Shown here piece after piece: positions 2,470-62,129 of a stretch of DNA of 64,000 nt. The DNA is from Eledone cirrhosa (taxonomy: Eukaryota). Location of the stretch: NCBI GenBank assembly GCA_964016885.1, contig OZ024764.1, positions 8,556,001 through 8,620,000 of the forward strand, given 5' to 3'. The position numbers and the translations under genes are program-made. How positions within the stretch are numbered: position 1 is the stretch's first letter; the number at the start of each line of letters is the position of its first letter. The notes under the pieces are model-generated. The model made no database searches, was not told the DNA's origin, and was given only the letters and a program-made list of their open reading frames with translations.

Positions 2470-3862
2470 GCCGGACCAAATGCTAATGATGCTTCTGACA
2501 GGACCCACTGGAAGGAGTGTTTGAGGACTTTGTCCCCGACGACTCTTTCTCAGGAATAAACTGTAGTGTGCAGGAGAGAAGACTGCGTTGGTATGGTGAT
2601 ATGATGCACATGGATGAGGACCGCTGGATGGAGAAGTGCCAAGAAATCCCAGTGGAAGGAAGACGCAGTGGAAGGAAGACCACGAAAAACATGGGCGGAG
2701 GTGGTGAGAGCTGACCTGAGATCGCTGAAGCTCACGGAGGAGATGACGAAGGACCGTGACAAATGGAGAGATGCTGTGCTGAAGAGGATCCATCCCTGTG
2801 GAAGGAAGACGCAGTGGAAGGAAGACCACGAAAAACATGGGCGGAGGTGGTGAGAGCTGACCTGAGATCGCTGAAGCTCACGGAGGAGATGACGAAGGAC
2901 CGTGACAAATGGAGAGATGCTGTGCTGAAGAGGATCCATCTCTGTGGAAGGAAGATGCAGTAGAGAAGACCACAAAAAACATGGGCGGAGGTGGTGAGAG
3001 CTGACCTGAGATCGCTGAAGCTCACGGAGGAGATGACGAAGGACCGTGACAAATGGAGAGATGCTGTGCTGAAGAGGATCCATCTCTGTGGAAGGAAGAT
3101 GCAGTAGAGAAGACCACAAAAAACATGGGCGGAGGTGGTGAGAGCTGACCTGAGATCGCTGAAGCTCACGGAGGAGATGACGAAGGACCGTGACAAATGG
3201 AGAGATGCTGTGCTGAAGAGGATCCATCTCTGTGGAAGGAAGATGCAGTAGAGAAGACCACAAAAAACATGGGCGGAGGTGGTGAGAGCTGACCTGAGAT
3301 CGCTGAAGCTCACGGAGGAGATGACGAAGGACCGTGACAAATGGAGAGATGCTGTGCTGAAGAGGATCCATCTCTGTGGAAGGAAGATGCAGTAGAGAAG
3401 ACCACAAAAAACATGGGCGGAGGTGGTGAGAGCTGACCTGAGATCGCTGAAGCTCACGGAGGAGATGACGAAGGACCGTGACAAATGGAGAGATGCTGTG
3501 CTGAAGAGGATCCATCTCTGTGGAAGGAAGATGCAGTAGAGAAGACCACAAAAAACATGGGCGGAGGTGGTGAGAGCTGACCTGAGATCGCTGAAGCTCA
3601 CGGAGGAGATGACGAAGGACCGTGACAAATGGAGAGATGCTGTGCTGAAGAGGATCCATCTCTGTGGAAGGAAGATGCAGTAGAGAAGACCACAAAAAAC
3701 ATGGGCGGAGGTGGTGAGAGCTGACCTGAGATCGCTGAAGCTCACGGAGGAGATGACGAAGGACCGTGACGAATGGAGAGATGCTGTGCTGAAGAGGACC
3801 CGTCCCACCCTTGCAAGCAGGGAAAAGCCGACGTATGATGATGATGATGATGATGATGATGA
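2470..3862 (+). mobile_element. RTE-clade LINE 3' fragment with internal ~144-bp tandem amplification (~8 copies)
   Basis: ERRLRWYG..M...GRPRKTW..VVR.DL C-terminal RTE motif. The 144-bp unit repeats over 2650-3800 and the element ends in a (GAT)n tail. Confidence 0.85.
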
Positions 3863-10880: not shown

Positions 10881-11456
10881 TATATAATATATATATATAT
10901 ATATTCATCTTTTTCCATTTCTTAGAGGGTTCTACCAGGCTAAAATTTCTTTAGTCAAAAGAATACGGCGAAAGCTTCTATTTCTAATTTCAAACTCGCT
11001 CGTTGTGTGTGTGTGTGTGTATGTGTTGTGTGTGTTGTGTGTGTGTGTGTTGTGTGTGTGTGTGTATATATCAACTAGAAATTGATTGACATATATATAT
11101 ATATCTAAAATAAACATATGAAACAATCACAGGGAATAATTGATATGGCGCATGTCCCTCTGACATGACACCCGTAATTTAATTTTGGATATATATATAT
11201 ATATATATATATATTGCTTTTTGTGAAAATCAGTCATATGGAACTATTGTCATCTTGCCTGACGGATTGAACTTTACAACACCACCTGCCTCTTTGAGGT
11301 TAAATACCAACCCTACTAGCATCTACAAACTGACCAATTAGAATTAAGATTATTCCTGCTGACAACATTAAATTATTCCTAACAAGCTCATATGTCCCAA
11401 GGCTCTGATACCATCAACACTATAAACACAGAGCTGACATATCTAAGAACTGACTA

Positions 11457-11514
11457 ACTGCCTGATGAGGTCTTAGCCATTCAATGGCTATCATCGAAAT
11501 ATATATATAGCAGT
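11457..11514 (+). ncRNA. Minimal type-I hammerhead ribozyme motif (Penelope-like repeat family A)
   Basis: actgc-CTGATGA-stem II (tagccatt/aatggcta)-GAAA-tatatata-TA-gcagt. Stem I actgc/gcagt; self-complementary stem III. Confidence 0.7.
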
Positions 11515-12019
11515 AAATAAAGGATTACGAGTTCATGCAATTGACTTATGTTTCGTCACTATACATATATATCATCATCATTTCATTTTATATCCACTTT
11601 TCCCTGCTTGCAAGGGTGGGACGGAAACTGATTGTGGCTTGATTTCTACAGCTGGATGCCCTTCCTAACACCAACCTCATTTACAGTGAGTGCTGGGTGC
11701 TTTTTTGCCGTGGCACCTCCACGACCACTTTACAGTGGAATGATATGGACCCCAGTCCCTATCATCTCATTTCTACAGCTGAGTAAACTGGAGCAATGTG
11801 AAATAAAGTGTCTTGCTCAAGGAAACAACACATCACCCGGTCTGAGAATTGAACTCACAACCTTTCGATTGCAAGGCCAATGCTCTAACCACTAAGCCAT
11901 GTATATATATATAAATAAAACAAGAGAGAGAGAGAGATTAGATAAAATGGATAGATATACAGATAGATGGATAGATAGTTGTATAGATAGTCTGACATAG
12001 ATTTTAAATAGGTAGATAG

Positions 12020-18606: not shown

Positions 18607-19552
18607 TGTGTTAAGTATTTCCGTGGAAAAGGTAAAGGAAAGAAGATTTCTATCTGATGAGCGATATCACACGTTTCTGTTAGAATCGTGTAACTTCGTG
18701 AAACCTTGGGTAATGAAATAATTATATTGTGTTGTTTATTATGTAATTTTAATGATATAGCCCAGTCCCAACCATATATCATAGGTTTCTTGGGTGTTTT
18801 AATGATAGGGACCCCAGTCCTGTCATGTTTATGTTACAGCTCACACCTATGTAGGTTTAGCTGGCTTCCTACAAGGTCGTATCTCATACAAGGTTTCTTG
18901 GATGTTTTAATGATAGGGACCACAGTCCTAACATGTATCTTATAGGAGGTTCCGGGATGTTTTAAGGATAGGAGCTCCAGTCCTAACACATATCACATAG
19001 AAGGTTTCCGGGGTGTTTTAATGATAGGGGCCCCAGTCCTAACACATATCTCATAGGTGGTTTCCAGGGTGTTTTAATGATAGGGGCTCCAGTCCTTGTC
19101 TTGCTTGTACAGAAGTGATTTTGGCTTGATTTCTACAGCTGGATGCCCTTCCTAACACCAACCTCATTTACAGTGAGTGCTGGGTTCCTTTTTTGCTGTG
19201 GCACCTCCACAACCACTTTGCAGTGGAATGATATGGACCCCAGTCCCTATCATCTCATTTCTACAGCTGAGTAAACTGGAGCAATGTGAAATAAAGTGTC
19301 TTGCTCAAGGAAACAACACATCACCCGGTCTGAGAATTGAACTCACAACCTTTCGATTGCAAGCCCAATGCTCTAACCACTAAGCCATGCGCCTTATGAA
19401 TTCAGTATCTTATTTAAAATTTAATTTGACAGGGGGCCGTTGACAAACAAGTTTGCGCCCAAAGGGGCCGCTGGCTGAAAAAAAGGTTGGGAAACCCCGA
19501 TGTAAAGCAACATGAAATGAAGACCCTAAACAAAAATATATAATCAACTAAC

Positions 19553-19757
19553 CTTCATGTGTAAGTTCTTCTTGAACTCATAGTAAGGGTAGTGGAGATG
19601 TTCCTCCATTAGGAACTCAAAGCGAGGGTCACATTTGTTTTTCACCACTATTTCAAACTCAATGCCGTTCTTTGCGACATACAGTGCCATCTTGTCAATG
19701 ACAGGCTGGACGTCAGGAGGTGGTGGTATGATGTGCCCTTTAGGGGAGTCAGCGCCA
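19553..19757 (-). CDS. SFSWAP: SFSWAP coding exon 8 (SURP/SWAP domain 2)
   Basis: Reads IIPPPPDVQPVIDKMALYVAKNGIEFEIVVKNKCDPRFEFLMEEHLHYPYYEFKK. TTTCAG acceptor, GTTAGT donor. 205 nt, phase 2 to 0. Confidence 0.95.
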
Positions 19758-20059
19758 CTGAAAGAGACCAAACAACAAAAAAAAAAACAATCAACAGAAC
19801 TGCTAGATGAGAGCCTGTGTGTGGTTGTGGTATGATGACCCTTTAGGGGAGTCAGTGCCACTGGAAGAGACCAAACAACAATCAACAGAACTGCTAGATG
19901 AGAGCCTGTGTGTGGATAAGGTGTTCCCGTCGCAACCACTGGGACCTGGGTTCAGACCCATTGTGTGATACCTTGAGAGGGGCAAACGATTATTTGAGAC
20001 CCGAGAGTACAAAGAAAAATATAGCAAGTCTTCTTGTCGTGTCCACAATTATCAGTTAC

Positions 20060-21520: not shown

Positions 21521-21690
21521 GGGGGGTTGATAAATAAAGCAAAACAAACACAGCGTTGCAAAAATACCAAGTCTTATCTGGTCACACACACACACACACA
21601 TACATACATATATATATATATATATATGTCCAAGGCTCTGATACCATCAACATTATAAACACAGAGCTGGCATATCTAAGAACTGACTAT

Positions 21691-21746
21691 CTGCCTGATG
21701 AGGTCATAGCCATTCAATGGCTATCATCGAAATATATATATAGCAG
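21691..21746 (+). ncRNA. Minimal type-I hammerhead ribozyme motif (second copy of family A)
   Basis: ctgc-CTGATGA-ggtcatagccattcaatggctatcatc-GAAA-tatatata-TA-gcag. The flanking ~170 bp is shared with 11395-11562. Confidence 0.7.
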
Positions 21747-21788
21747 TAAATAAAGGATTATGAGTTCATGCAATTGACTTATGTTTCG

Positions 21789-21823
<35 letters not shown>

Positions 21824-23057: not shown

Positions 23058-24239
23058 CTATATGATTAAACACAGATACAGAGATGATATATTAGAATTT
23101 ACATTACTCTATATATACTATTGTATTTTCATGGTAAATGCTTTATCTCACATAATATCTTATCTATGAGATTTTGAAAGTATTTATTTTGAGAACAATA
23201 CCTTAACATCAGTTTGAGCAGCCAGTTACAGCCAGTTTCAACAAAAAAGGGTAGAGAATTCTGGCCGGTTTGAACATTAAAGGGTTTAATAACACTTTGG
23301 CCCTAGCTGGACATGACAGAGATAAAGAGATGTCTGTATATATATATATACATGTAAAATAATAGTAATATACATGACACATATATACATATATATATAT
23401 AGTTTACCCCTAACATTCGCGGAATTTTTCTTAGAACCTAACTAATAATAGTTCATTGAAATCACTGCATATTCGCGGAACCATAAATATCTTCCGTCAT
23501 TTTTTAATGGCTTTTTTCATGACAATATTTAGACATGATATATATTCATATTATATATTATAGGGCGGTGGATTGGCAGTATCGGTAGAGAGTCGGACGC
23601 CATGCTTTCCAGCATAGTTACGTCTCTTTACGGTCTGAGTTCAAATCTCGCCGAGGTTAACTTTGACTTTCTTCCTTACGGGGTCGATAAAATAAAGTAC
23701 CAGTAATACACTGGGTAATTTGCAGGCCTTGTGCCAAAAGTAGAAACAAATATTTATTTTTTCGTGCTTTTTATCACTAAATTATTAATAACAATATACT
23801 GTATTTACTGGCCTATATTTTATGTTTTATCTTCGTAATATAAAATTAAAAAAATTAGTTGCAATGTGTGCAATTAGTTATGTGTGGCCCTCAGGGGACC
23901 CTCAGTTTGACATGCATGATATACAGTGTACCCCTGACAATCAGGGTTCCGGTTATCCACGGAATTTTCCTTAGAACCTAACTAATAATTGTTCGTGCAA
24001 GCCGCTGCATATTGGCTTTTTTTGTGGCAATATATATTTTTCCACGCTTTTTAACGCTAAATTATTGATAACAATATACAGTATTTGCTGGCTTATATTT
24101 TATGTTATGTTATGTTTTGACGTTTATAGGCATTTTTATGAACCCTGTCCAATCATCATCGTTTAACGTCTGTCCGTGTCTCGCTCGCATAGGACTGTAT
24201 CTGGCAGGTTTTCTACGGCTGGTTGTCCTTCCTAACACC

Positions 24240-25090
24240 AACCACATTACAGTGTGGACTGGGAGCCTTTTTACCGTGTCTCCTAAACGACAACGTTACA
24301 GCGTGGACTGGGAGCCTTTTTACCATGTCTCCTAAACGACAACTTTACAGCGTGGACTGGGAGCCTTTTTACCGTGTCTCCTAAAGAACAACTTTACCGC
24401 ATGGACTGCGAGCCCTTTTACCGTGTCTCCTAAACCACAGACAACTTTACAGTGTGGACTGGGAGCCTTTTTACCATGTCTCCTAAACGACAATTTTACA
24501 GTGTGGACTGGGAGCCCTTTTACAGTGTCTCCTAAACGACAGACAACTTTATAGTGTGGACTGGGAGCCTTTTTACAGTGTCTCCTAAACAACAGACAAC
24601 TTTACAGTGTGGACTGGGAGCCTTTTTACAGTGTCTCCTAAACGACAGACAACTTTACAGTGTGGACTGGGAGCCCTTTTACAGTGTCTCCTAAACGACA
24701 GACAACTTTACAGTGTGGACTGGGAGCCTTTTTACAGTGTCTCCTAAACGACAGACAACTTTACAGCGTGGACTGGGAGCCTTTTTACCGTGTCTCCTAA
24801 AGAACAACTTTACCGCATGGACTGCGAGCCCTTTTACCGTGTCTCCTAAACCACAGACAACTTTACAGTGTGGACTGGGAGCCTTTTTACCATGTCTCCT
24901 AAACGACAATTTTACAGTGTGGACTGGGAGCCTTTTTACAGTGTCTCCTAAACAACAGACAACTTTACAGTGTGGACTGGGAGCCTTTTTACAGTGTCTC
25001 CTAAACAACAGGCAACTTTACAGTGTGGACTGGGAGCCTTTTTACAGTGTCTCCTAAATGACAGACAACTTTACAGTGTGGACTGGGTGC
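24240..25090. repeat. 49-53-bp minisatellite from RTE 3'UTR
   Basis: TTTACAGTGTGGACTGGGAGCCTTTTTAC unit embedded in the element. Confidence 0.9.
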
Positions 25091-25291
25091 TTTTTTTGTC
25101 ATGACACCTACACAACTTCTTTAGTTTGGACGATTTTTCACTATTCTCAGGTGCTCTAGGAATGTAACCCCCCCCCCCCCAATACCGGGGGACAACTGTA
25201 TATACCTATTGTCCAACCTTACATATCTGACTGTGTAGTTTTTGAATGCTCAACAACACCTGTTTAATAATAAAAAAAAAGCAAGTCTTAC

Positions 25292-25514
25292 CTTCCTCGT
25301 CAGGCGAGGTTTCTATATTTGGTTTATATTTGCCTGACTTGATCATCTTGAGGACATGTTTATAGTAGGGGCAGAGAACGTTGTCGATGTTCAAGAACTC
25401 AAAAAGAGGGTTAGATGACTGCTTGGTTTTCAGCATGATTTCCATCTGACCTCCTTGCATTACTACAAAGTTGGCAGTTCTTACAATTATGGCATTGATC
25501 TTGTTACTGTCAGG
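25292..25514 (-). CDS. SFSWAP: SFSWAP coding exon 5 (SURP/SWAP domain 1)
   Basis: Reads PDSNKINAIIVRTANFVVMQGGQMEIMLKTKQSSNPLFEFLNIDNVLCPYYKHVLKMIKSGKY. TAG acceptor, GTAAGA donor. 223 nt, phase 0 to 1. Confidence 0.95.
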
Positions 25515-27727: not shown

Positions 27728-28066
27728 ATGGAGAGACATGGCTTAGTGGTTAGAGCATTGGGCTTGCAATCGAAAGGTTGTGAGTTCAATTCTCAGACCG
27801 GGTGATCTGTTGTTTCCTTGAGCAAGGCACTTTATTTCACATTGCTCCAGTTTACTCAGCTGTAGAAATGAGATGATAGGTCTGGGGTCCCTATCATTCC
27901 ACTGTAAAGTGGTCGTGTAGGTGCCACGGCAAAAAAGCACCCAGCACTCACTGTAAATGAGGTTGGTGTTAGGAAGGGCATCCAGCTGTAGAAATCAACC
28001 CAGAATCAATTCCCGTCCCAACCTTGCAAGCAGGGACAAGCGGACGTAAAATGATGAATGCTGATG
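27728..28066 (+). mobile_element. tRNA-derived SINE family 2 with RTE-type tail (other copies ~10345, 11575, 19115, 22198-22855, 25705)
   Basis: TGGCTTAGTGG A-box, GAGTTCAATTC B-box and CCTTGAGCAAGGCACTT core; 3' end CCTTGCAAGCAGGG...GGACGTAAAATGATG. Confidence 0.85.
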
Positions 28067-30504: not shown

Positions 30505-31640
30505 AGTTATGAACTGTTGGAAAGGAGTTCATAACTTTGAAGTTATGAACTGTTGGAAAGGAGTTCATAACTTTGAAGTTATGAACTGTTGGAAAGGAGT
30601 TCATAACTTTGAAGTTAAGAACTGTTGGAAAGGAGTTCATAACTTTGAAGTTATGAACTGTTGGAAAGGAGTTCATAACTTTGAAGTTATGAACTGTTGG
30701 AAAGGAGTTCATAACTTTGAAGTTATGAACTGTTGGAAAGGAGTTCATAACTTTGAAGTTAAGAACTGTTGGAAAGGAGTTCATAACTTTGAAGTTATCA
30801 ACTGTTGGAAAGGAGTTCATAACTTTGAAGTTAAGAACTGTTGGAAAGGAGTTCATAACTTTGAAGTTATGAACTGTTGGAAAGGAGTTCATAACTTTGA
30901 AGTTATCAACTGTTGGAAAGGAGTTCATAACTTTGAAGTTATCAACTGTTGGAAAGGAGTTCATAACTTTGAAGTTATCAACTGTTGGAAAGGAGTTCAT
31001 AACTTTGAAGTTATCAACTGTTGGAAAGGAGTTCATAACTTTGAAGTTAAGAACTGTTGGAAAGGAGTTCATAACTTTGAAGTTATCAACTGTTGGAAAG
31101 GAGTTCATAACTTTGAAGTTATCAACTGTTGGAAAGGAGTTCATAACTTTGAAGTTATCAACTGTTGGAAAGGAGTTCATAACTTTGAAGTAATGAACTG
31201 TTGGAAAGGAGTTCATAACTTTGAAGTAATGAACTGTTGGAAAGGAGTTCATAACTTTGAAGTTATCATCTGTTGGAAAGGAGTTCATAACTTTGAAGTA
31301 ATGAACTGTTGGAAAGGAGTTCATAACTTTGAAGTTATCAACTGTTGGAAAGGAGTTCATAACTTTGAAGTTATCAACTGTTGGAAAGGAGTTCATAACT
31401 TTGAAGTTATCAACTGTTGGAAAGGAGTTCATAACTTTGAAGTTAAGAACTGTTGGAAAGGAGTTCATAACTTTGAAGTTATCAACTGTTGGAAAGGAGT
31501 TCATAACTTTGAAGTTATCAACTGTTGGAAAGGAGTTCATAACTTTGAAGTTATCAACTGTTGGAAAGGAGTTCATAACTTTGAAGTTATCAACTGTTGG
31601 AAAGGAGTTCATAACTTTGAAGTTATGAACTGTTGGAAAC
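30505..31640. repeat. 33-bp palindromic minisatellite (~34 copies)
   Basis: Unit TGTTGGAAAGGAGTTCATAACTTTGAAGTTATGAAC-type with period 33 and no spacers. Confidence 0.95.
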
Positions 31641-31667
31641 AACTCCTTACCCACCCAGGAGACTTAC

Positions 31668-31837
31668 CTTCGTACAGCGCTTGCTCCTGGATGTCTGTGT
31701 GCAGCTCCAAGTAGCGTTCCTTGTCACAGAGGGCTTCAATGTGCTTCTCCTCTTCGGACAGGGTGCAGTCGGCATTGTTGCTGTTGCAAGACGCATCGTA
31801 GGGCGTCAGGTCATAGAGGTGACCTCGCCCATCGTAC
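31668..31837 (-). CDS. SFSWAP: SFSWAP coding exon 2 (DRY_EERY domain)
   Basis: TAG|G acceptor. Reads [56 protein letters not shown]. Donor G|GTAAGT. 170 nt, phase 2 to 1. Confidence 0.95.
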
Positions 31838-32957
31838 CTAACGACGAAGACAAGGAGAAAACATGGCAGTCAGAAACGGCGAGTTTTCAGCAGGTCACGA
31901 GTGTTTCCTTTTTAAACACCACACATCGCAGAAACAACAGACAACGAAAGAAAAAATAAAACACATAAAACATAAATCAGTAACATCTTATTAATGGCCT
32001 ATAAATATGTATATGTGTGTATACATATGTATGTATATATGTGTGTATATATATATATATATATGTGTGTGTAAATACAAATATACGTGTGTGTATACAT
32101 ATATATATATATGTGTATATACCTATATGTATGTATATATGTGTATATATAATATATATATATATATATATGTATACGCACATACACATATATATTCACA
32201 TGTATATATATACATCCATACATATATACACACACACACACATATATACATATATGTATATATATATACATATATATATACACACATATATACATACATA
32301 CACATATAAATGTTTAAATCTACGGAGATACTGGGCATCAAATTTTTTTTTGCTTTTCACATGAAAAGCTTCCTAAACTAGAAACTGGTGAAAAGGGGAT
32401 AAGCTAACCTAACAAACCTCTGGGATACGTTTTAATAATAATGGTTTCTGATTTAGGCACAAGGCCAGCAATTTAGGGTTACTGTCCCTGTAAGGATGAA
32501 AGGCAAAGCTAACCATGGCAAAATTTGGATCCAGGATGTAACTGTATGCCACAAAGCATGTGGTCCCCCGCTCTACCTATTCTGCCAACCCACCAACAAG
32601 GTATTCGAAATATAACAAAGGCATATAACAGATAAAATCCATGGGGCTGAAAATCAGATACAAGAGGACGACCGACTATTTAGCAGCTTCTACCTCAGTC
32701 AGTCACCCTCGCATTACATTGAGTACTCTCCCTAATATTACATCAAGGTTAACCATACGGAATGACCAGTTCTATCCAGTGGTGAACCAACTAACCTAAA
32801 TAAATATATATATATAAGAAAAGAGTCAGGACCCCGACAGTTCTGTCGAAACGGTCGGAGCTCAGCTGTCGGGGTCCTGACTCTTTTCCTACCTCCTCTA
32901 GATATTGAGTACTCTGGTGCGTTATGGTCCACCTGGCATCTTACTACACCCTCTTTG

Positions 32958-39554: not shown

Positions 39555-41220
39555 GTTGTAAAGTGGTTGTATAGGTGTCATGACAAAAAGCACCCAGTCC
39601 ACACTGTAAAGTGGTCATGTAAGTGTCACAACAAAATGCACCCAGTCCACACTGTAAAGTGGTCATATAAGTGTCATGACAAAAAGCACTCAGTCCACTG
39701 TAAAACGGTTGTATAGGTGTCATGACAAAATGCACCCAGTCCACACTGCAAAAGGGTGTGTAGGTGTCATGGCAAAAAGTACCCAGTACACACTGTAAAA
39801 TGGCTGTATAGGTGTCATGGCAAAAAGTACCCAGTACACACTGTAAAATGGCTGTATAGGTGTCAAGGCAAAAAGTACCCAGTACACACTGTAAAATGGC
39901 TGTATAGGTGTCAAGGCAAAAAGTACCCAGTACACACTGTAAAATGGCTGTATAGGTGTCAAGGCAAAAAGTACCCAGTACACACTGTAAAATGGCTGTA
40001 TAGGTGTCAAGGCAAAAAGTACCCAGTACACACTGTAAAATGGCTGTATAGGTGTCAAGGCAAAAAGTACCCAGTACACACTGTAAAATGGCTGTATAGG
40101 TGTCAAGACAAAACGCACCCAGTACACACTGTGTGGTTGGCATCAGGAAAGGTATCTAGCCCGAGAAACCAAACCAGAAACAGTTCTGTCTGAGCAAGTT
40201 ATGGTCACCTGACCTGGTTTGTATCACAACAGAACAACTCGTGTAACCCATGCTTGCCTGGAAAATGGATGTTAAATGGTGAAGATGATGATATATATAT
40301 ATATATCCCAACTCCTCCAGAGAGGACTTGTTAAGGGTTTTATATATATATTCAGTCTACACTAAAGTGGTCGTGTAGGTGTCAACAAAAAGCACCCAGT
40401 CCACGCTGTAAAGTGGTCGTGTAGGAAACACGGTAAAAAGGCTCCCAGTCCACACTGTAAAGTGGTCATGTAGGAGACATGGTAAAAAGGCTCCCAGTCC
40501 ACACTGTAAAGTGGTCATGTAGGAGACACGGTAAAAAGGCTCCCAGTCCACACTGTAAAGTGGTCATGTAGGAGACACGGTAAAAAGGCTCCCAGTCCAA
40601 CTGTAATGTGGTCGTGTAGGAGACACGGTAAAAAGGTTCCCAGTCCACACTGTAAAGTGGTCATGTAGGAGACATGGTAAAAAGGCTCCCAGTCCACACT
40701 GTAAAGTGGTCATGTAGGAGACACGGTAAAAAGGCTCCCAGTCCAACTGTAATGTGGTCGTGTAGGAGACACGGTAAAAAGGTTCCCAGTCCACACTGTA
40801 AAGTGGTCATGTAGGAGACATGGTAAAAAGGCTCCCAGTCCACACTGTAAAGTGGTCATGTAGGAGACACGGTAAAAAGGCTCCCACTCCAACTGTAATG
40901 TGGTCGTGTAGGAGACACGGTAAAAAGGTTCCCAGTCCACACTGTAAAGTGGTCATGTAGGAGACATGGTAAAAAGGCTCCCAGTCCACACTGTAAAGTG
41001 GTCATGTAGGAGACACGGTAAAAAGGCTCCCAGTCCACACTGTAATGTGGTCGTGTAGGAGACATGGTAAAAAGGCTCCCAGTCCACACGGTAAAAAGGC
41101 CCCCAGTCCACACTGTAAATGTGGTCGTGTAGGAGACATGATAAAAAGGCTCCCAGTCCACACTGTAAGGTGGTCGTGTGGGAGACACAGTAAAAAGGCC
41201 CCCAGTCCACACTGTAAATG
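39555..41220. repeat. Two 48/49-bp minisatellite arrays in RTE 3'UTR copies (39555-40130, 40360-41220)
   Basis: CCCAGTCCACACTGTAAAGTGG unit, the reverse complement of the 55.6-60.7 kb array. Confidence 0.9.
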
Positions 41221-41666
41221 TGGTTGGTGTTAGGAAAGGCATCCAGCTGTAGAAAACCTGCCAGATACAGTCCTATACGAGTGAGACACGGTCACCCGAT
41301 CAATCTTGCCTCAAGTGGGACAATTCCCATCTAACCTATGCCAGCGTGGAAGATAGACATTAAACGATGATGATGATGATATATATATATTTCATTTTCA
41401 TTCACGGAAATTACTGGTAATTGTTTGTAATAATCTTAAAATGAAGGATTATCCATAAAATGAAGGATTATCCATAAAAAAAAACAAGCATTTTTTAAAA
41501 AGCCAGAAGGAAGATTAAAGATGAGAAAAAGAAAAAATAGGTAGACAGGCAGAATAATAATAATAATAATATATATATAGTATATATATTTTTTTTGGAA
41601 TTTCAAAAATTCGAAAGTTTAAATCGAAACCTTTTAACGAATCATCCTTGGGTTTAAGGCACAGAC

Positions 41667-45748: not shown

Positions 45749-46544
45749 TATACTTTATATATATTTAATTATGTAATAAACAACACACTATAATTATTCC
45801 ATTAGCCAAGGTTCTGATGAACGACTTCAGACGTCTCTGTTAGAATCGTCTGACTTCGTGAAACCTTGGGTAATGGGATAATTATATTGTGTTGTTTATT
45901 ACATAATTAAATAGCTCTGTACTCTACATAGAGCACTCTTCTTTCCTTTACCTTTTTCAGTCCATAGGTTGACATTATCAAGCCATTGCTTTGGCTGCTG
46001 GTCTCTGCTTCTCCTACCAGCCAACCTTCCTTCGTGACATAACCTATTCACACCACGAGTCGATCTTTTTATATGGCCATATAGTTTGAGTACTCTTGAC
46101 TTGACATACCCCATTTCCACGCGATGTCATGTCAGAAAGACCACCCGCCAAATATACACTCTTTCCAAATGCTAAAATCACTACTGAAAAGTAAACCAAG
46201 GACACAACATATCACCCGGTCCGAGAATCGAACTCACAACCTCCCGATTGCAAGCCCAATGCTTTAACCACTAAGCCAGGTGTGTGTGTGTGTGTGTACG
46301 GAGGAATTGGGAATAGGGTATGGAGTGTTTGGTGTGGATTGGATGGGAGGAGTTGAAGTCGAGGTAAGAATGGGAGTCGGTTGGTTTATAGAAGATGGAA
46401 GTAGAGAGGGTGTGGTGAGTGATTGATAGATAGAGAGATATCTAGAAAAGGGACAGAAGAATCGGAGACGGAGGCGGTGAAGGTATGAGCAGGTTCCAAT
46501 TCCAATCCGCCCGTCCCTTCAATCTATCTTATTTCTCATTCTTT

Positions 46545-46579
46545 TTTCTGATGAGGGACTAGCGTCCGAAACGTTAAGA
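46545..46579 (+). ncRNA. Minimal type-I hammerhead ribozyme motif (Penelope-like family B)
   Basis: CTGATGA-g-ggac(tagc)gtcc-GAAACGTTA-aga. 4-bp stem II and palindromic AACGTT stem III. A homolog on the minus strand at ~28538-28575 has GAAA changed to AAAA. Confidence 0.65.
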
Positions 46580-46985
46580 CCTTCTTGCTGCTATATCAAG
46601 CGTTAACCTAATATATCCCTTCCATATACTGTACCGATTTTGTTGTTATTTCTGTTTACCTTTTTACATACATACATACATACACACATACACACACACA
46701 CAAATATATATATATATATATAGGATCGATCGACTTTCGTCAAATCGGACCGCGCAAACAATCTTTTCGTCGGTCTTTCCAGTTGCTAATACTATCCAGG
46801 TAGAAGGAGCAACGTGAAATAAAGTGTCTTGCTCAAGGACATAACGCATCGCCCGGTCTAGGAATCGAACTCACAACCTCAAGATTATGAATCCAATTCT
46901 CTAACCACTCAGCCACACGCCTTTACACCATACATACACACACGCGTTCATTTACACGAGTGTACACACACACACAAACACATAC

Positions 46986-55285: not shown

Positions 55286-55589
55286 AATGCTAAAGGGTTA
55301 GATGGGAAAAAAAATGCTGGGTACTTTTAGAATGCACCTTGTATACCATTGTAAACAACATTCTCCCTAAGTTGCACAGTTACTGTGCAGTTGTTGCACA
55401 CTCCAGAATGTTAGCCCACATCATCATCATCATCATCATCGTTTAACGTCCATCTTCCACGCTAGCATGGGTTAGGTGGGACTTGTCCCACTTGAGGCAA
55501 GATTGATCAGGTGACCGTGTCTTGCTCATATAGGAGTGTATCTGGCAGGTTTCCTACGGCTGGATGCCCTACCTAACACCAACCACATT

Positions 55590-58500
55590 TACAGTGTGGA
55601 CTGGGAGCCTTTTTACCGTGTCTCCTACACGACCACTTTACAGTGTGGACTGGGAGCCTTTTTACTGTGTCTCCTACATGACCACTTTACAGTGTGGACT
55701 GGGAGCCTTTTTACTGTGTCTCCTACACGACCACTTTACAGTGTGGACTGGGAGCCTTTTTACCGTGTCTCCTACATGACCACTTTACAGTGTGGACTGG
55801 GAGCCTTTTTACTGTTTCACCTACATGACCACTTTACAGTGTGGACTGGGAGCCTTTTTACCGTGTCTCCTACATGACCACTTTACAGTGTGGACTGGGA
55901 GCCTTTTCACTGTGTCTCCTACATGACCACTTTACAGTGTGGACTGGGAGCCTTTTTACTGTGTCTCCTACATGACCACTTTACAGTGTGGACTGGGAGC
56001 CTTTTTACTGTGTCTCCTACATGACCACTTTACAGTGTGGACTGGGAGCCTTTTTACTGTGTCTCCTACATGACCACTTTACAGTGTGGACTGGGAGCCT
56101 TTTTACTGTGTCTCCTACATGACCACTTTACAGTGTGGACTGGGAGCCTTTTTACTGTGTCTCCTACATGACCACTTTACAGTGTGGACTGGAAGCCTTT
56201 TTACCATGTCTTCTACATGACCACTTTACAGTGTGGACTGGGAGCCTTTTTACCGTGTCTCCTACACGACCACTTTACAGTGTGGACTGGGAGCCTTTTT
56301 ACCATGTCTCCTACATGACCACTTTACAGTGTGGACTGGGAGCCTTTATACTGTGTCTCCTACATGACCACTTTACAGTGTGGACTGGGAGCCTTTTTAC
56401 CGTGTCTCCTACATGACCACTTTACAGTGTGGACTGGGAGCCTTTATACTGTGTCTCCTACATGACCACTTTACAGTGTGGACTGGAAGCCTTTTTACCA
56501 TGTCTCCTACATGACCACTTTACAGTGTGGACTGGGAGCCTTTTTACCGTGTCTCCTACATGACCACTTTACAGTGTGGACTGGGAGCCTTTATACTGTG
56601 TCTCCTACATGACCACTTTACAGTGTGGACTGGGAGCCTTTTTACCGTGTCTCCTACATGACCACTTTACAGTGTGGACTGGGAGCCTTTTTACCGTGTC
56701 TCCTACATGACCACCTTACAGTGTGGACTGGGAGCCTTTTTACTGTGTCTCCTACATGACCACCTTACAGTGTGGACTGGGAGCCTTTTTACTGTGTCTC
56801 CTACACTACCACTTTACAGTGTGGACTGGGAGCCTTTTTACTGTGTCTCCTACATGACCACTTTACAGTGTGGACTGGGAGCCTTTTTACCGTGTCTCCT
56901 ACACGACCACTTTACAGTGTGGACTGGGAGCCTTTTTACCGTGTCTCCTACACGACCACTTTACAGTGTGGACTGGGAGCCTTTTTACCGTGTCTCCTAC
57001 ACGACCACTTTACAGTGTGGACTGGGAGCCTTTTTACCGTGTCTCCTACACGACCACTTTACAGTGTGGACTGGGAGCCTTTTTACCGTGTCTCCTACAT
57101 GACCACTTTACAGTGTGGACTGGGAGCCTTTTTACCGTGTCTCCTACATGACCACTTTACAGTGTGGACTGGGAGCCTTTTTACCGTGTCTCCTACATGA
57201 CCACTTTACAGTGTGGACTGGGAGCCTTTTTACCGTGTCTCCTACATGACCACTTTACAGTGTGGACTGGGAGCCTTTTTACCGTGTCTCCTACATGACC
57301 ACTTTACAGTGTGGACTGGGAGCCTTTTTACTGTGTCTCCTACATGACCACTTTACAGTGTGGACTGGGAGCCTTTTTACCGTGTCTCCTACATGACCAC
57401 TTTACAGTGTGGACTGGGAGCCTTTTTACTGTGTCTCCTACATGACCACTTTACAGTGTGGACTGGGAGCCTTTTTACCGTGTCTCCTACATGACCACTT
57501 TACAGTGTGGACTGGGAGCCTTTTTACCGTGTCTCCTACACGACCACTTTACAGTGTGGACTGGAAGCCTTTTTACCGTGTCTTCTACATGACCACTTTA
57601 CAGTGTGGACTGGGAGCCTTTTTACCGTGTCTCCTACATGACCACTTTACAGTGTGGACTGGAAGCCTTTTTACCGTGTCTCCTACATGACCACTTTACA
57701 GTGTGGACTGGAAGCCTTTTTACCGTGTCTCCTACATGACCACTTTACAGTGTGGACTGGGAGCCTTTTTACCGTGTCTCCTACATGACCACTTTACAGT
57801 GTGGACTGGGAGCCTTTTTACCGTGTCTCCTACACGACCACTTTACAGTGTGGACTGGGAGCCTTTTTACCGTGTCTCCTACATGACCACTTTACAGTGT
57901 GGACTGGAAGCCTTTTTACCGTGTCTTCTACATGACCACTTTACAGTGTGGACTGGGACCCTTTTTACCGTGTCTCCTACACGACCACTTTACAGTGTGG
58001 ACTGGGAGCCTTTTTACCGTGTCTCTTACATGACCACTTTACAGTGTGGACTGGGAGCCTTTTTACCATGTATCCTACATGACCACTTTACAGTGTGGAC
58101 TGGGAGCCTTTTTACCGTGTCTCCTACATGACCACTTTACAGTGTGGACTGGGAGCCTTTTTACCGTGTCTCCTACATGACCACCTTACAGTGTGGACTG
58201 GGAGCCTTTTTACTGTGTCTCCTACATGACCACCTTACAGTGTGGACTGGGAGCCTTTTTACTGTGTCTCCTACACTACCACTTTACAGTGTGGACTGGG
58301 AGCCTTTTTACCGTGTCTCCTACATGACCACTTTACAGTGTGGACTGGGAGCCTTTTTACTGTTTCACCTACATGACCACTTTACAGTGTGGACTGGGAG
58401 CCTTTTTACCGTGTCTCCTACATGACCACTTTACAGTGTGGACTGGGAGCCTTTTCACTGTGTCTCCTACATGACCACTTTACAGTGTGGACTGGGAGCC

Positions 58501-60700
58501 TTTTTACTGTGTCTCCTACATGACCACTTTACAGTGTGGACTGGGAGCCTTTTTACTGTGTCTCCTACATGACCACTTTACAGTGTGGACTGGGAGCCTT
58601 TTTACTGTGTCTCCTACATGACCACTTTACAGTGTGGACTGGGAGCCTTTTTACTGTGTCTCCTACATGACCACTTTACAGTGTGGACTGGGAGCCTTTT
58701 TACTGTGTCTCCTACATGACCACTTTACAGTGTGGACTGGAAGCCTTTTTACCATGTCTTCTACATGACCACTTTACAGTGTGGACTGGGAGCCTTTTTA
58801 CCGTGTCTCCTACACGACCACTTTACAGTGTGGACTGGGAGCCTTTTTACCATGTCTCCTACATGACCACTTTACAGTGTGGACTGGGAGCCTTTATACT
58901 GTGTCTCCTACATGACCACTTTACAGTGTGGACTGGGAGCCTTTTTACCGTGTCTCCTACATGACCACTTTACAGTGTGGACTGGGAGCCTTTATACTGT
59001 GTCTCCTACATGACCACTTTACAGTGTGGACTGGGAGCCTTTTTACCATGTCTCCTACATGACCACTTTACAGTGTGGACTGGGAGCCTTTTTACCGTGT
59101 CTCCTACATGACCACTTTACAGTGTGGACTGGGAGCCTTTATACTGTGTCTCCTACATGACCACTTTACAGTGTGGACTGGGAGCCTTTTTACCGTGTCT
59201 CCTACATGACCACTTTACAGTGTGGACTGGGAGCCTTTTTACCGTGTCTCCTACATGACCACCTTACAGTGTGGACTGGGAGCCTTTTTACTGTGTCTCC
59301 TACATGACCACCTTACAGTGTGGACTGGGAGCCTTTTTACTGTGTCTCCTACACTACCACTTTACAGTGTGGACTGGGAGCCTTTTTACTGTGTCTCCTA
59401 CATGACCACTTTACAGTGTGGACTGGGAGCCTTTTTACCGTGTCTCCTACACGACCACTTTACAGTGTGGACTGGGAGCCTTTATACTGTGTCTCCTACA
59501 TGACCACTTTACAGTGTGGACTGGGAGCCTTTTTACCGTGTCTCCTACATGACCACTTTACAGTGTGGACTGGGAGCCTTTTTACTGTCTCCTACATGAC
59601 CACCTTACAGTGTGGAGTGGGAGCCTTTTTACTGTGTCTCCTACACGACCACCTTACAGTGTGGACTGGGAGCCTTTTTACTGTCTCCTACATGACCACT
59701 TTACAGTGTGGACTGGGAGCCTTTTTACTGTGTCTCCTACATGACCACTCTACAGTGTGGACTGGGTGCCTTTTTACTGTGTCTCCTACACGACCACTTT
59801 ACAGTGTGGACTGGGAGCCTTTTTACTGTGTCTCCTACATGACCACTTTACAGTGTGGACTGGGAGCCTTTTTACCGTGTCTCCTACATGACCACTTTAC
59901 AGTGTGGACTGGGAGCCTTTTTACCGTGTCTCCTACACGACCACTTTACAGTGTGGACTGGAAGCCTTTTTACCGTGTCTCCTACACGACCACTTTACAG
60001 TGTGGACTGGGAGCCTTTTTACCGTGTCTCCTACACGACCACTTTACAGTGTGGACTGGGAGCCTTTTTACCGTGTCTCCTACATGACCACTTTACAGTG
60101 TGGACTGGGAGCCTTTTTACCGTGTCTCCTACATGACCACTTTACAGTGTGGACTGGGAGCCTTTTTACCGTGTCTCCTACACGACCACTTTACAGTGTG
60201 GACTGGGAGCCTTTTTACTGTCTCCTACATGACCACCTTACAGTGTGGAGTGGGAGCCTTTTTACTGTGTCTCCTACACGACCACCTTACAGTGTGGACT
60301 GGGAGCCTTTTTACTGTGTCTCCTACATGACCACTTTACAGTGTGGACTGGGAGCCTTTTTACTGTGTCTCCTACATGACCACTTTACAGTGTGGACTGG
60401 GAGCCTTTTTACTGTGTCTCCTACACGACCACTTTACAGTGTGGACTGGGAGCCTTTTTACTGTGTCTCCTACATGACCACTTTACAGTGTGGACTGGGA
60501 GCCTTTTTACTGTGTCTCCTACATGACCACTTTACAGTGTGGACTGGGAGCCTTTTTACTGTGTCTCCTACATGACCACTTTACAGTGTGGACTGGGAGC
60601 CTTTTTACCGTGTCCCGTACATGACCACATTACAGCGTGGACTGGGAACCTTTTTACCGTGACAACTACATGACCACATTACAGTGTGGACTGGGTGCTT
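55590..60700. repeat. 49-bp minisatellite (~104 copies) inside a minus-strand RTE 3'UTR (element 55420-61015)
   Basis: Period 49. Flanks match the unexpanded elements at 17390-17946 and 29463-30095. Confidence 0.97.
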
Positions 60701-62129
60701 TTTGTCGTGACACCTACACCACATCTTTAGTGTGGACTGGATGTTTTGTGGTACCAACATAACTTTAAAGAGAAAGAGTGGTGTTGGTGCGAGAGGGAGG
60801 ATGGAGTAGGAGTAGTGGGTTGGGGTGTATATTTGGTTAAGCGGTGCCTATTGACTGTAGGTTTAACTTTGTATGTAAGGGAAGGTGGGTCTTCTGTAAA
60901 CCTGCGTAGCACCAAAGGTCTCGATCCAGTGACATTGTCTTGTAAGTGTGCAAGGTCAGATTTTATCATGTCGTCCCATGTTTTTCTGGGTCTACCCACC
61001 CCGTAGCTTCCATCAATATATCAAATTTTTTGCTGAGGGCTTTTTGGGTAGTGGGGTGGGGGATTGAAGGGGACATTGATGTTTAACTCATTCTCTTTCT
61101 AATTTTCTATGTTCTAGGTACCATACATTTTCCTTGACCACTACAGTATTCCACTGTCCAGTAGAGAAGCCAGTCAAACCACAACAGTATTCCTCAAGCC
61201 CTTTAAAGAAGACCGCTGACCCTTGAAGAGATCACTGAACTCTAAAAGGAAGTTACTGAGCCCTATATATGAGGCCATCAAACTACTAGAGAAGCTTGGA
61301 CCACTGGACCAGCAGGGAAGCTCAAATGACCACTACAACAATCCACTCAATCATGAGAAAAGCTCAACTGACCTCTAGAAAAGCCTAACTGACCACTACA
61401 ACAGTCTATTAAACCACTAAAACAGCCTAATGAGCACTGACAGAGTGTACTAAACCACCAGAAAACCTTAACTGACCACTAAAACAGACCACTAAGCCAT
61501 AGAGGAGCCAAACTGACCACTAAAGTAGTCCATTGACCCTTAAACAAGCCAATGAACGCTACAAAAACTCACTCATTTTTACAGTAACCCTCTGCTCCTT
61601 AACAAGGTCATTTCAGCAGGTCCTCAGAGTTCACAGTAGCCCTCTCACTTCTATAGGGGCCCTTCCATCTCTATAAGACCTACTGGAGACAACCCACATT
61701 ACAGAGCCCTGTTGAGCCCTATATGAAACCACCTACACTACTGAAACCTTCATACATCAACAGGGGCCATTTATCTTCTATTAGAATCCTCTACAGGGAT
61801 TCTTTTGAGCCCTGCAAGAGGCTACCTAACACAAGAGGGGCTCTGACTTTTACTGGGACACTGACACCCCTACAAATATCCTGTTGAGCCCATCGGGACA
61901 CTATTCAACTGATCCTAGGGCCTGCTTTCTGGGTGCTTACCTCAGGAACTCCTCCATCACATCCATAGAATTTCTTCATTTGGTTGTCACAGAAACGCTG
62001 ATACCGATAAAGGGTGGTTGTGGTGGTGGTGGTGGAAGAGCAGGTTTGGTGGTCGTGATAGTACAACAACACTACCACTATCAATCCCACCACCACCACT
62101 ACTAACATCGCCAACAACAACAGGTCACC

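What the first reader, a model, noticed from the sequence alone, without database searches (positions are those of the whole stretch)
11457..11514. Hammerhead ribozyme with (UA)n palindromic stem III in a repeat family (copies at 11457 and 21691)
Seen: complete CUGAUGA and GAAA cores, stem I (cugc/gcag), a long stem II, and a stem III made only of alternating UA before an AUA cleavage triplet. A polyA-like AAUAAA follows. Established: Penelope-like elements carry minimal type-I hammerheads with palindromic stem III that cleave as dimers. Inference: this is a PLE terminal repeat, and using a TA microsatellite as the dimerising stem is unusual. Both copies are antisense to the SFSWAP pre-mRNA.
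Basis: partly seen in the sequence, partly recalled or inferred. Interest (0 to 1): 0.72.

Follow-up and report, generated by a model that had tools for sequence, protein, structure and literature searches.

The report
Hydra-retroelement hammerhead with circle-copying footprint
The motif is a hammerhead-type self-cutting RNA sequence at the tail end of a Penelope-like jumping gene with about 3,000 copies in this animal genome; its AU-only stem is a family trait rather than a borrowed microsatellite, and the places where copies begin suggest that long copies were likely made from a cut and re-joined RNA circle, a long-proposed but unshown step.

Summary
Observation confirmed. The hammerhead (11457-11514; second copy 21691-21746) is the 3' end of a Hydra-clade Penelope-like element. 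There are 2,869 exact matches around stem III, and longer copies carry an RT + C-terminal GIY-YIG ORF. Both window copies lie antisense in SFSWAP introns.

The AU stem is not a captured microsatellite. The family has (AU)4, the window's (AU)5 is a 3.6% slippage variant, and related families keep other self-complementary 8-mers, as dimer cleavage predicts.

New here: half of the arms that reach one site 118 nt before the cut stop there (37 of 74, two families). That site lies 51-55 nt behind a conserved CCAAT box and is likely the transcription start. Copies that have already run through the ORF never stop there (0 of 26). Short copies therefore likely ran off the 5' end of uncut mRNA, and long tandem copies came from a template without that end, most simply a ribozyme-cut, ligated circle.

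Cleavage and circles are untested.

The parts
11215..11559 (+). Copy 1: 5'-truncated 3' end (pLTR region) of a Hydra-clade Penelope-like element, between TA runs
   Evidence: 97-98% identical to genomic copies that extend upstream into the ORF; 3' end shared by 30 of 30 loci
11330..11340 (+). CCAAT box, likely part of an upstream promoter (the NF-Y likeness is recalled, not tested)
   Evidence: kept 51-55 nt before the CATATG site in 5 of 5 diverged family representatives printed
11390..11442 (+). Likely transcription start (11390) followed by a hairpin; main 5' end of short copies
   Evidence: 22 of 62 arms start here; hairpin z -2.4; equivalent hairpin and pile-up in the sister family
11457..11514 (+). 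Type I hammerhead: core 11462-11468, GAAA 11496-11499, AU palindrome 11499-11508, predicted cut after 11509
11516..11521 (+). AAUAAA hexamer, role untested
   Evidence: sequence; present in several related families, absent in family D
21624..21792 (+). Copy 2: short copy starting at the likely transcription start and ending at the main 3' end; lacks the CCAAT box
21691..21746 (+). Second hammerhead copy (stem I 4 bp, predicted cut after 21742)
19547..19951 (-). Host gene frame with a Surp module (SFSWAP-type; frame limits, not exon limits)
   Evidence: Pfam PF01805 E 7e-13
25209..25514 (-). Host gene frame with a second Surp module
   Evidence: Pfam PF01805 E 9e-13
31612..31869 (-). Host gene frame with the DRY_EERY domain
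   Evidence: Pfam PF09750 E 8e-11

Best explanation
The motif is the type I hammerhead at the 3' end of a high-copy Hydra-clade Penelope-like retroelement; it likely cuts only when two copies pair through the AU palindrome, and would release a unit-length RNA that is likely ligated into the circle from which long and tandem copies are reverse-transcribed. Shown: element identity, copy number, TA targets, two fixed 3' ends 85 nt apart, the 3'-to-5' unit junction, and where copies begin. Inferred: (1) transcription starts at 11390, behind a CCAAT promoter in the upstream pLTR; (2) RT primes inside the RNA 50 or about 135 nt after the cut site, as shown in vitro for Poseidon; (3) on uncut mRNA it runs off the 5' end and gives promoterless 168- or 253-nt copies such as window copy 2; (4) when the two hammerheads of a pLTR-ORF-pLTR transcript pair and cut, the monomer is joined end to end, RT crosses the join, passes the promoter region without stopping and can exceed one lap, rebuilding the pLTR. 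Confidence: identity 0.95, dimer 0.75, start site 0.7, covalent circle 0.5.
For: ORF linkage and Hydra motifs. The sister family (56% protein identity) has an intact 894-aa frame and the same (AU)4 hammerhead with a compensatory stem II change. Other 8-nt centres all self-pair: GCGC, GAUC, and AUGU by G-U; chance about 0.003 for three families. The active dimer is -34 to -35 kcal/mol against -22 for two active monomers and -27 to -29 for two monomer MFEs. 149 copies run on into the 5' start of the unit. Stops at the 11390 site: 22 of 49 (family A) and 15 of 25 (family B) first-pass arms, against 0 of 14 and 0 of 12 copies that already crossed into the ORF (pooled p 6e-7). Short copies have no fixed alleles of their own (44 short, 75 long). 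The 5' and 3' pLTRs of one insertion share 43 variants against 13.8 under permutation (0 of 5000; 13 of 15 pairs usable). 17 of 17 family-A ORF copies whose 3' end was seen lack a 3' tail. 3 of 35 ORF copies that reach the cut site begin at it.
Against: No RNA, cleavage or circle was observed. In the one PLE tested in vitro, hammerhead mutants inserted normally and no RNA-seq reads ended at the cut (PMC11167929, parts 1-2 read). Intact family-B copies do carry 3' tails (4 of 4 loci), so they could template long copies without a circle. The best-scoring cofold keeps the core mispaired (-37 to -40 kcal/mol), and in families C and I the active dimer is barely or not favoured. Stem II covariation is thin: 1 of 16 pairs changes on both sides; 21 of 500 shuffles reach the score. 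Shared pLTR variants also fit a young master with identical pLTRs or gene conversion. The two arms of one insertion are not independent counts. L259 starts at the site and runs 141 nt into the next unit; it was left out as a short copy. Longest insertions seen are about 1.5 units, none 2 or more.
Confidence: 0.6

Rival explanations
1. The hammerhead is a passenger or acts only late. All copies come from uncut linear RNA: short ones from start-site mRNA, long ones from read-through transcripts that begin upstream (host promoter, inverted arm, or a longer tandem master) and end in a 3' tail.
For: Unprocessed RNA is the main substrate in vitro (PMC11167929). Family-B masters have 3' tails and long pLTRs. 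At most 39 copies begin in a long TA run at the cut site, against 3,089 matches just downstream of it; 8 of 30 inspected truly do.
Against: Start-site mRNA with a 3' tail should give full-length copies that begin at the start site; 0 of 26 do. pLTRs could only shrink over generations, yet some reach 1.9 kb. The core and a self-pairing stem III are kept across diverged families.
Confidence: 0.22
2. The RNA is cut at both hammerheads but not ligated; RT jumps from the cut 5' end to the cut 3' end, as R2 RT does (recalled), which gives the same DNA.
For: 3 of 35 ORF copies begin at the cut site. Everything that favours a template lacking the start-site end fits this too.
Against: No sloppiness at the join: 10-nt stems are no more common in long than in short copies (13 stop / 12 longer against 22 / 27, p 0.63). 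Length changes at the stem (5 gains in 100) do not differ significantly from a control TA run (1 in 100, p 0.21).
Confidence: 0.12
3. The pile-up of 5' ends at 11390 is a sequence effect (hairpin fold-back plus ATAT microhomology to the TA target) or a short non-autonomous subfamily, not an RNA 5' end.
For: The site is a palindromic hexamer at the base of a hairpin, and two-armed insertions often join there.
Against: The same sequence never stops copies on the second pass, although they stop often nearby (7 of 14 within 200 nt). Short and long copies share polymorphisms. A CCAAT box is kept at a fixed distance upstream.
Confidence: 0.12
4. The AU stem is flanking or target microsatellite captured by the element, or the motif is a chance match in TA-rich DNA.
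For: Stem and target are both TA repeats. The stem slips by two-base units. Rfam does not score it.
Against: Fixed 8-nt length across families, with non-TA palindromes in the same slot. 0 hits in 30 shuffles. Control pattern 0 against 2,869.
Confidence: 0.03

Closest known systems
Hydra clade of Penelope-like elements (Craig et al. 2021, PMC8557442; section 11, passages, supplement parts 1, 2, 52, 58 read)
   Same: RT + C-terminal GIY-YIG, DKT, CxCx5C linker, CxxC and CxH motifs, no CCHH, (TA)n targets, hammerhead about 100 nt from the 3' end.
   Different: About 4.1 kb instead of under 3 kb (low-complexity insertions in the ORF, 1.3-kb 3' UTR). All 26 Hydra hammerhead rows of their File S2 have stem III AC...GU, none AU...AU with an AUA triplet. 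It is a different family from Hydra-1_Obim.
PLE minimal / palindromic-helix-III hammerheads (Cervera and de la Pena 2014, PMC4209133, parts 1-2 read; Luense et al. 2017 not held, seen only as cited in review PMC6765202)
   Same: Type I, short helix I, long helix II, palindromic helix III predicted to work as a dimer. The circle model was proposed in the 2014 paper.
   Different: 8-nt AU-only palindrome. The parts read give no genomic evidence for the circle; this family shows a start-site versus second-pass contrast.
Poseidon PAc of Anolis (Frangieh et al. 2024, PMC11167929, parts 1-2 of 4 read)
   Same: Two internal RT starts defining a tail, AT-rich target, hammerhead in the pLTR.
   Different: Tail 85 nt rather than 30-40 nt, and it lies before the ATG (194 nt after the cut). 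PAc needed no cleavage in vitro.
Penelope of Drosophila virilis (Schostak et al. 2008, PMC2377424; passages and Discussion read)
   Same: Partial tandem, transcript starting in the upstream pLTR.
   Different: Promoter internal there; here the conserved CCAAT lies upstream of the likely start. The paper states that no mechanism for pLTR regeneration is obvious.
Metazoan non-LTR retrozymes (PMC7229834, search listing only; preprint 10.64898/2026.07.22.740005, abstract and passages)
   Same: Type I hammerheads, PLE connection, circular RNA model.
   Different: Those are non-coding tandem repeats; this is the coding element itself, and its short copies are single or two-armed.

Membership tests
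Type I hammerhead | CUGANGA and GAAA cores, NUH triplet, stems I and II | tested here: met
Type I hammerhead | Scores against a curated Rfam hammerhead model | tested here: not met
   no hit at gathering threshold; E-value mode not run
Type I hammerhead | Self-cleavage | not testable with these tools
   no experiment, no raw RNA reads
PLE dimeric hammerheads | Palindromic helix III, unstable as monomer | tested here: met
   forced hairpin +3.6 to +4.7 kcal/mol, self-duplex -3.2 to -5.6; self-pairing kept across families
PLE dimeric hammerheads | Active dimer is the favoured fold | tested here: inconclusive
   beats two monomers in A, B, D, but a core-mispaired dimer scores better still
PLE minimal hammerhead (no helix III) | Helix III reduced to the conserved pair | tested here: not met
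   8-10 nt palindrome present
Penelope-like element | Single ORF with RT and GIY-YIG | tested here: met
   847-aa frame L206, 894-aa frame L207, motifs by regex and by-eye match to published alignment; Pfam and PDB give no significant hit
Penelope-like element | 5' truncation, partial tandems, inverted arms, optional tail | tested here: met
Hydra clade | DKT, CxCx5C linker, CxxC and CxH, no CCHH | tested here: met
   against section 11 of PMC8557442
Hydra clade | RWK motif | tested here: met
   RWK in family B; RWR in family A, read by eye from L031 DNA
Hydra clade | Insertion into (TA)n | tested here: met
   30 of 30 loci end in TA
Hydra clade | Generally under 3 kb | tested here: not met
   about 4.1 kb; a tendency in the paper, not a defining rule
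Hydra clade | Placement in an RT tree | not tested
Non-LTR retrozyme | Non-coding tandem monomers, one hammerhead each | tested here: not met
   coding element; no short tandem arrays among 60 loci

The most novel reading that the evidence does not exclude
An autonomous Penelope-like element records two RNA templates in its copies: uncut mRNA that yields promoterless run-off copies, and a hammerhead-cut, ligated circle that yields every long copy and rebuilds the promoter-bearing pseudo-LTR. The weak AU dimer stem would then be the switch that lets only pLTR-ORF-pLTR transcripts become circles, which answers how pseudo-LTRs are regenerated.
Probability: 0.45. Interest if true: 0.72.

Novelty: new variant of a known kind. 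Interest (0 to 1): 0.5.

Why it matters
Hammerheads in Penelope-like elements are known, but their role is open. The only in vitro system did not need them, and how pseudo-LTRs are rebuilt has no accepted mechanism. This family and its sister give a countable genomic contrast (37 of 74 against 0 of 26), a predicted transcription start, a predicted RNA junction and an intact 894-aa frame, so the circle model becomes directly testable. The AU-only stem alone is a modest variant. For the host gene the copies are probably neutral, since the SFSWAP pre-mRNA carries the strand that is not a hammerhead. No report of an AU-only helix III or of this contrast turned up in 7 full-text searches. Luense et al. 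2017 and its supplements could not be read and may list such palindromes.

Tried and rejected
Rfam at gathering threshold: no hammerhead. Pfam and PDB searches of the ORF pieces: nothing significant. The protein atlas gave no answer. No RNA holder listed. Contigs of two runs of unknown kind cover the element; their depth cannot rank parts and was not used as evidence. A chimera idea (3' end from another PLE clade, prompted by a PDGLN frame at 11216-11341) was rejected because 149 copies join this 3' end to the Hydra 5' UTR and the sister family carries the same hammerhead. Junction sloppiness at the cut site: not found. A short subfamily: no diagnostic allele. Low substitution rates in GAA, stem III and the 3' strand of stem I were discarded, because the copies were selected by patterns covering those bases. 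A cap-derived extra G at the start site: 3 of 36 junctions, too few and masked by TA flanks. Of 20 extra regions fetched, 5 held pLTR junctions; the rest were 5'-truncated or showed no adjoining pLTR. Earlier scan notes: no look-alike by sequence, place or key words.

Full report
Observation. Window 11457-11514 reads as a type I hammerhead: 5-bp stem I, CUGAUGA, an 11-bp bulged stem II, GAAA, an AU-only 10-nt palindrome, AUA, and the closing strand of stem I. A second copy has its core at 21695. My descriptor finds 3 hits in the window and 0 in 30 local shuffles. Rfam does not score it at gathering level, and the isolated 58-mers fold little better than shuffles. Surp, Surp and DRY_EERY domains lie on the minus strand on either side, so both copies are antisense within an SFSWAP-type gene.

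The family. A DNA search of the 3.0-Gb genome gave 1,661 candidates, 40 scored. An exact pattern around stem III matches 2,869 times, its reversed control 0 times. All 30 loci inspected end at the same base, followed by TA. Copies differ from the majority base by about 2%. Longer copies extend through a 1.3-kb 3' UTR into an ORF. One copy has an 847-aa open frame; a sister family (B, 56% identical) has an intact 894-aa frame. Both show DKT, YRDD, CxCx5C, VYxC...YIG without CCHH, CxxC and CxH, the features given for the Hydra clade, and they match the published alignment by eye. Pfam and PDB are silent, and no tree was built. The host is probably a cephalopod; that label comes from earlier scan notes and was not tested.

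Stem III. The family form is (AU)4. The window's (AU)5 occurs in 103 of 2,869 matches, and longer runs are rarer. Family B has the same (AU)4 in 7,396 exact matches, with a UA-to-CG change in stem II; this is the only double change among 16 pairs in 9 sequences. Other families met in the fetched loci have the same 8-nt AU...AU + A layout with centres GCGC, GAUC and AUGU, all self-pairing. Single copies with non-pairing centres also occur. A monomer tetraloop has no reason to be palindromic; chance is about 0.003 for three families. As a hairpin the stem costs +3.6 to +4.7 kcal/mol. The double-hammerhead fold beats two monomers in families A, B and D, marginally in C and not in I, and a core-mispaired dimer scores better still. 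None of the 26 published Hydra rows has this stem. So the stem is an inherited, probably dimer-forming palindrome that happens to be AU-only and slips like any TA run (5 of 100 against 1 of 100 at a control run, p 0.21).

Ends of copies. Most copies end 50 nt after the cut site. 149 continue into an 85-nt tail that is the 5' start of the unit; 30 were inspected. This is the two-start signature shown in vitro for Poseidon. For 5' ends I took 62 of the first 64 listed matches (two already held were skipped). 22 begin within 6 nt of window position 11390, 27 begin upstream and 13 downstream. Window copy 2 is of this short kind. Short and long copies share polymorphisms and have no fixed difference. 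A CCAAT box sits 51-55 nt upstream of the equivalent hexamer in 5 diverged representatives whose sequence there otherwise differs. I read the site as the transcription start.

Second pass. Of 26 copies holding 5' UTR beyond the tail, 14 that run into the ORF reach the site again, and none stops there (p 0.001). One short copy that starts there and ends 141 nt into the unit was left out; two of the 14 were not followed to their 3' end. They are not more processive, since 7 of 14 stop within the next 200 nt. I then tested family B with the prediction set beforehand: 15 of 25 first-pass arms stop at the site (first 30 of 7,396 matches), and 0 of 12 ORF copies do (first 30 of 61; p 0.0004). Three of 35 ORF copies that reach the cut site begin at it. 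Among all copies at most 39 begin in a long TA run there, and 8 of 30 inspected truly do. 17 of 17 family-A ORF copies with a visible 3' end lack a 3' tail, one further locus has one, and 4 of 4 family-B loci with a long open frame have one. The two pLTRs of one insertion share 43 variants against 13.8 expected, including 17 rare ones in 13 pairs against 22 in 156 mismatched pairs.

Mechanism. Short copies likely come from uncut mRNA, with RT starting near its 5' end and running off. Long copies come from a template that has no end at the start site and carries the promoter region ahead of the hammerhead. A monomer released by dimer cleavage at both pLTRs and ligated, as proposed in 2014, gives this directly and explains pLTR regeneration, for which Schostak et al. 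saw no obvious mechanism. Read-through transcripts from longer masters remain possible, and are favoured by the in vitro result that cleavage was dispensable. End-to-end jumping on cut RNA also remains possible, though no junction sloppiness was seen. No RNA evidence was available.

Verdict. Real, and mostly a known kind: a new Hydra-clade family with a variant hammerhead. The start-site versus second-pass contrast is the part worth following. Earlier notes of this scan suggested circles for non-coding repeats of the same genome and primed that reading; they are leads, not support.

Noticed in passing
window 46544-46580 (+): A third, unrelated small hammerhead with a 4-nt palindromic stem III.
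   Followed up: no
window 45795-45875 (+): Another hammerhead-like motif with a long stem II, resembling families seen in L035 and L184; read by eye, not hit by the descriptor.
   Followed up: no
tails of families A, B, C, D, I (e.g. L066, L207, L012, L097, L091): A shared short motif pair, ACUC ... GAGU(GCU), that could close a stem at the start of the tail; candidate protein-binding or RT-start element. Single-sequence folds do not agree on it.
   Followed up: partly
L011 about 3100-3190: A run of telomere-type hexamer repeats sits inside the tail of a family-D copy.
   Followed up: no
fetched loci, 654 kb scanned: Many further hammerhead families cluster in the same TA runs, several as two-armed inverted insertions; whether families C, D, E and I have their own ORFs was not checked.
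   Followed up: no
3' UTR, L036 and L032 versus L034, L035, L038: Two forms of the 3' UTR: a unique stretch of about 500 nt, or a TA-rich stretch in its place.
   Followed up: no
window 11183-11341 (+): A 52-aa stop-to-stop frame containing PDGLN, reminiscent (recalled) of the end of other PLE endonucleases; possibly a relic or chance.
   Followed up: partly
window 19330-19387 (-), 27739-27796 (+): tRNA-like heads of a SINE with many copies in the window, including next to both hammerhead copies.
   Followed up: no
window 24100-24550, 40387-41380, 55442-60730: A 49-bp tandem repeat in several arrays, one inverted.
   Followed up: no
L171: Two opposed arms joined exactly at the AU palindrome of stem III, so the stem can serve as microhomology between cDNAs.
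   Followed up: no
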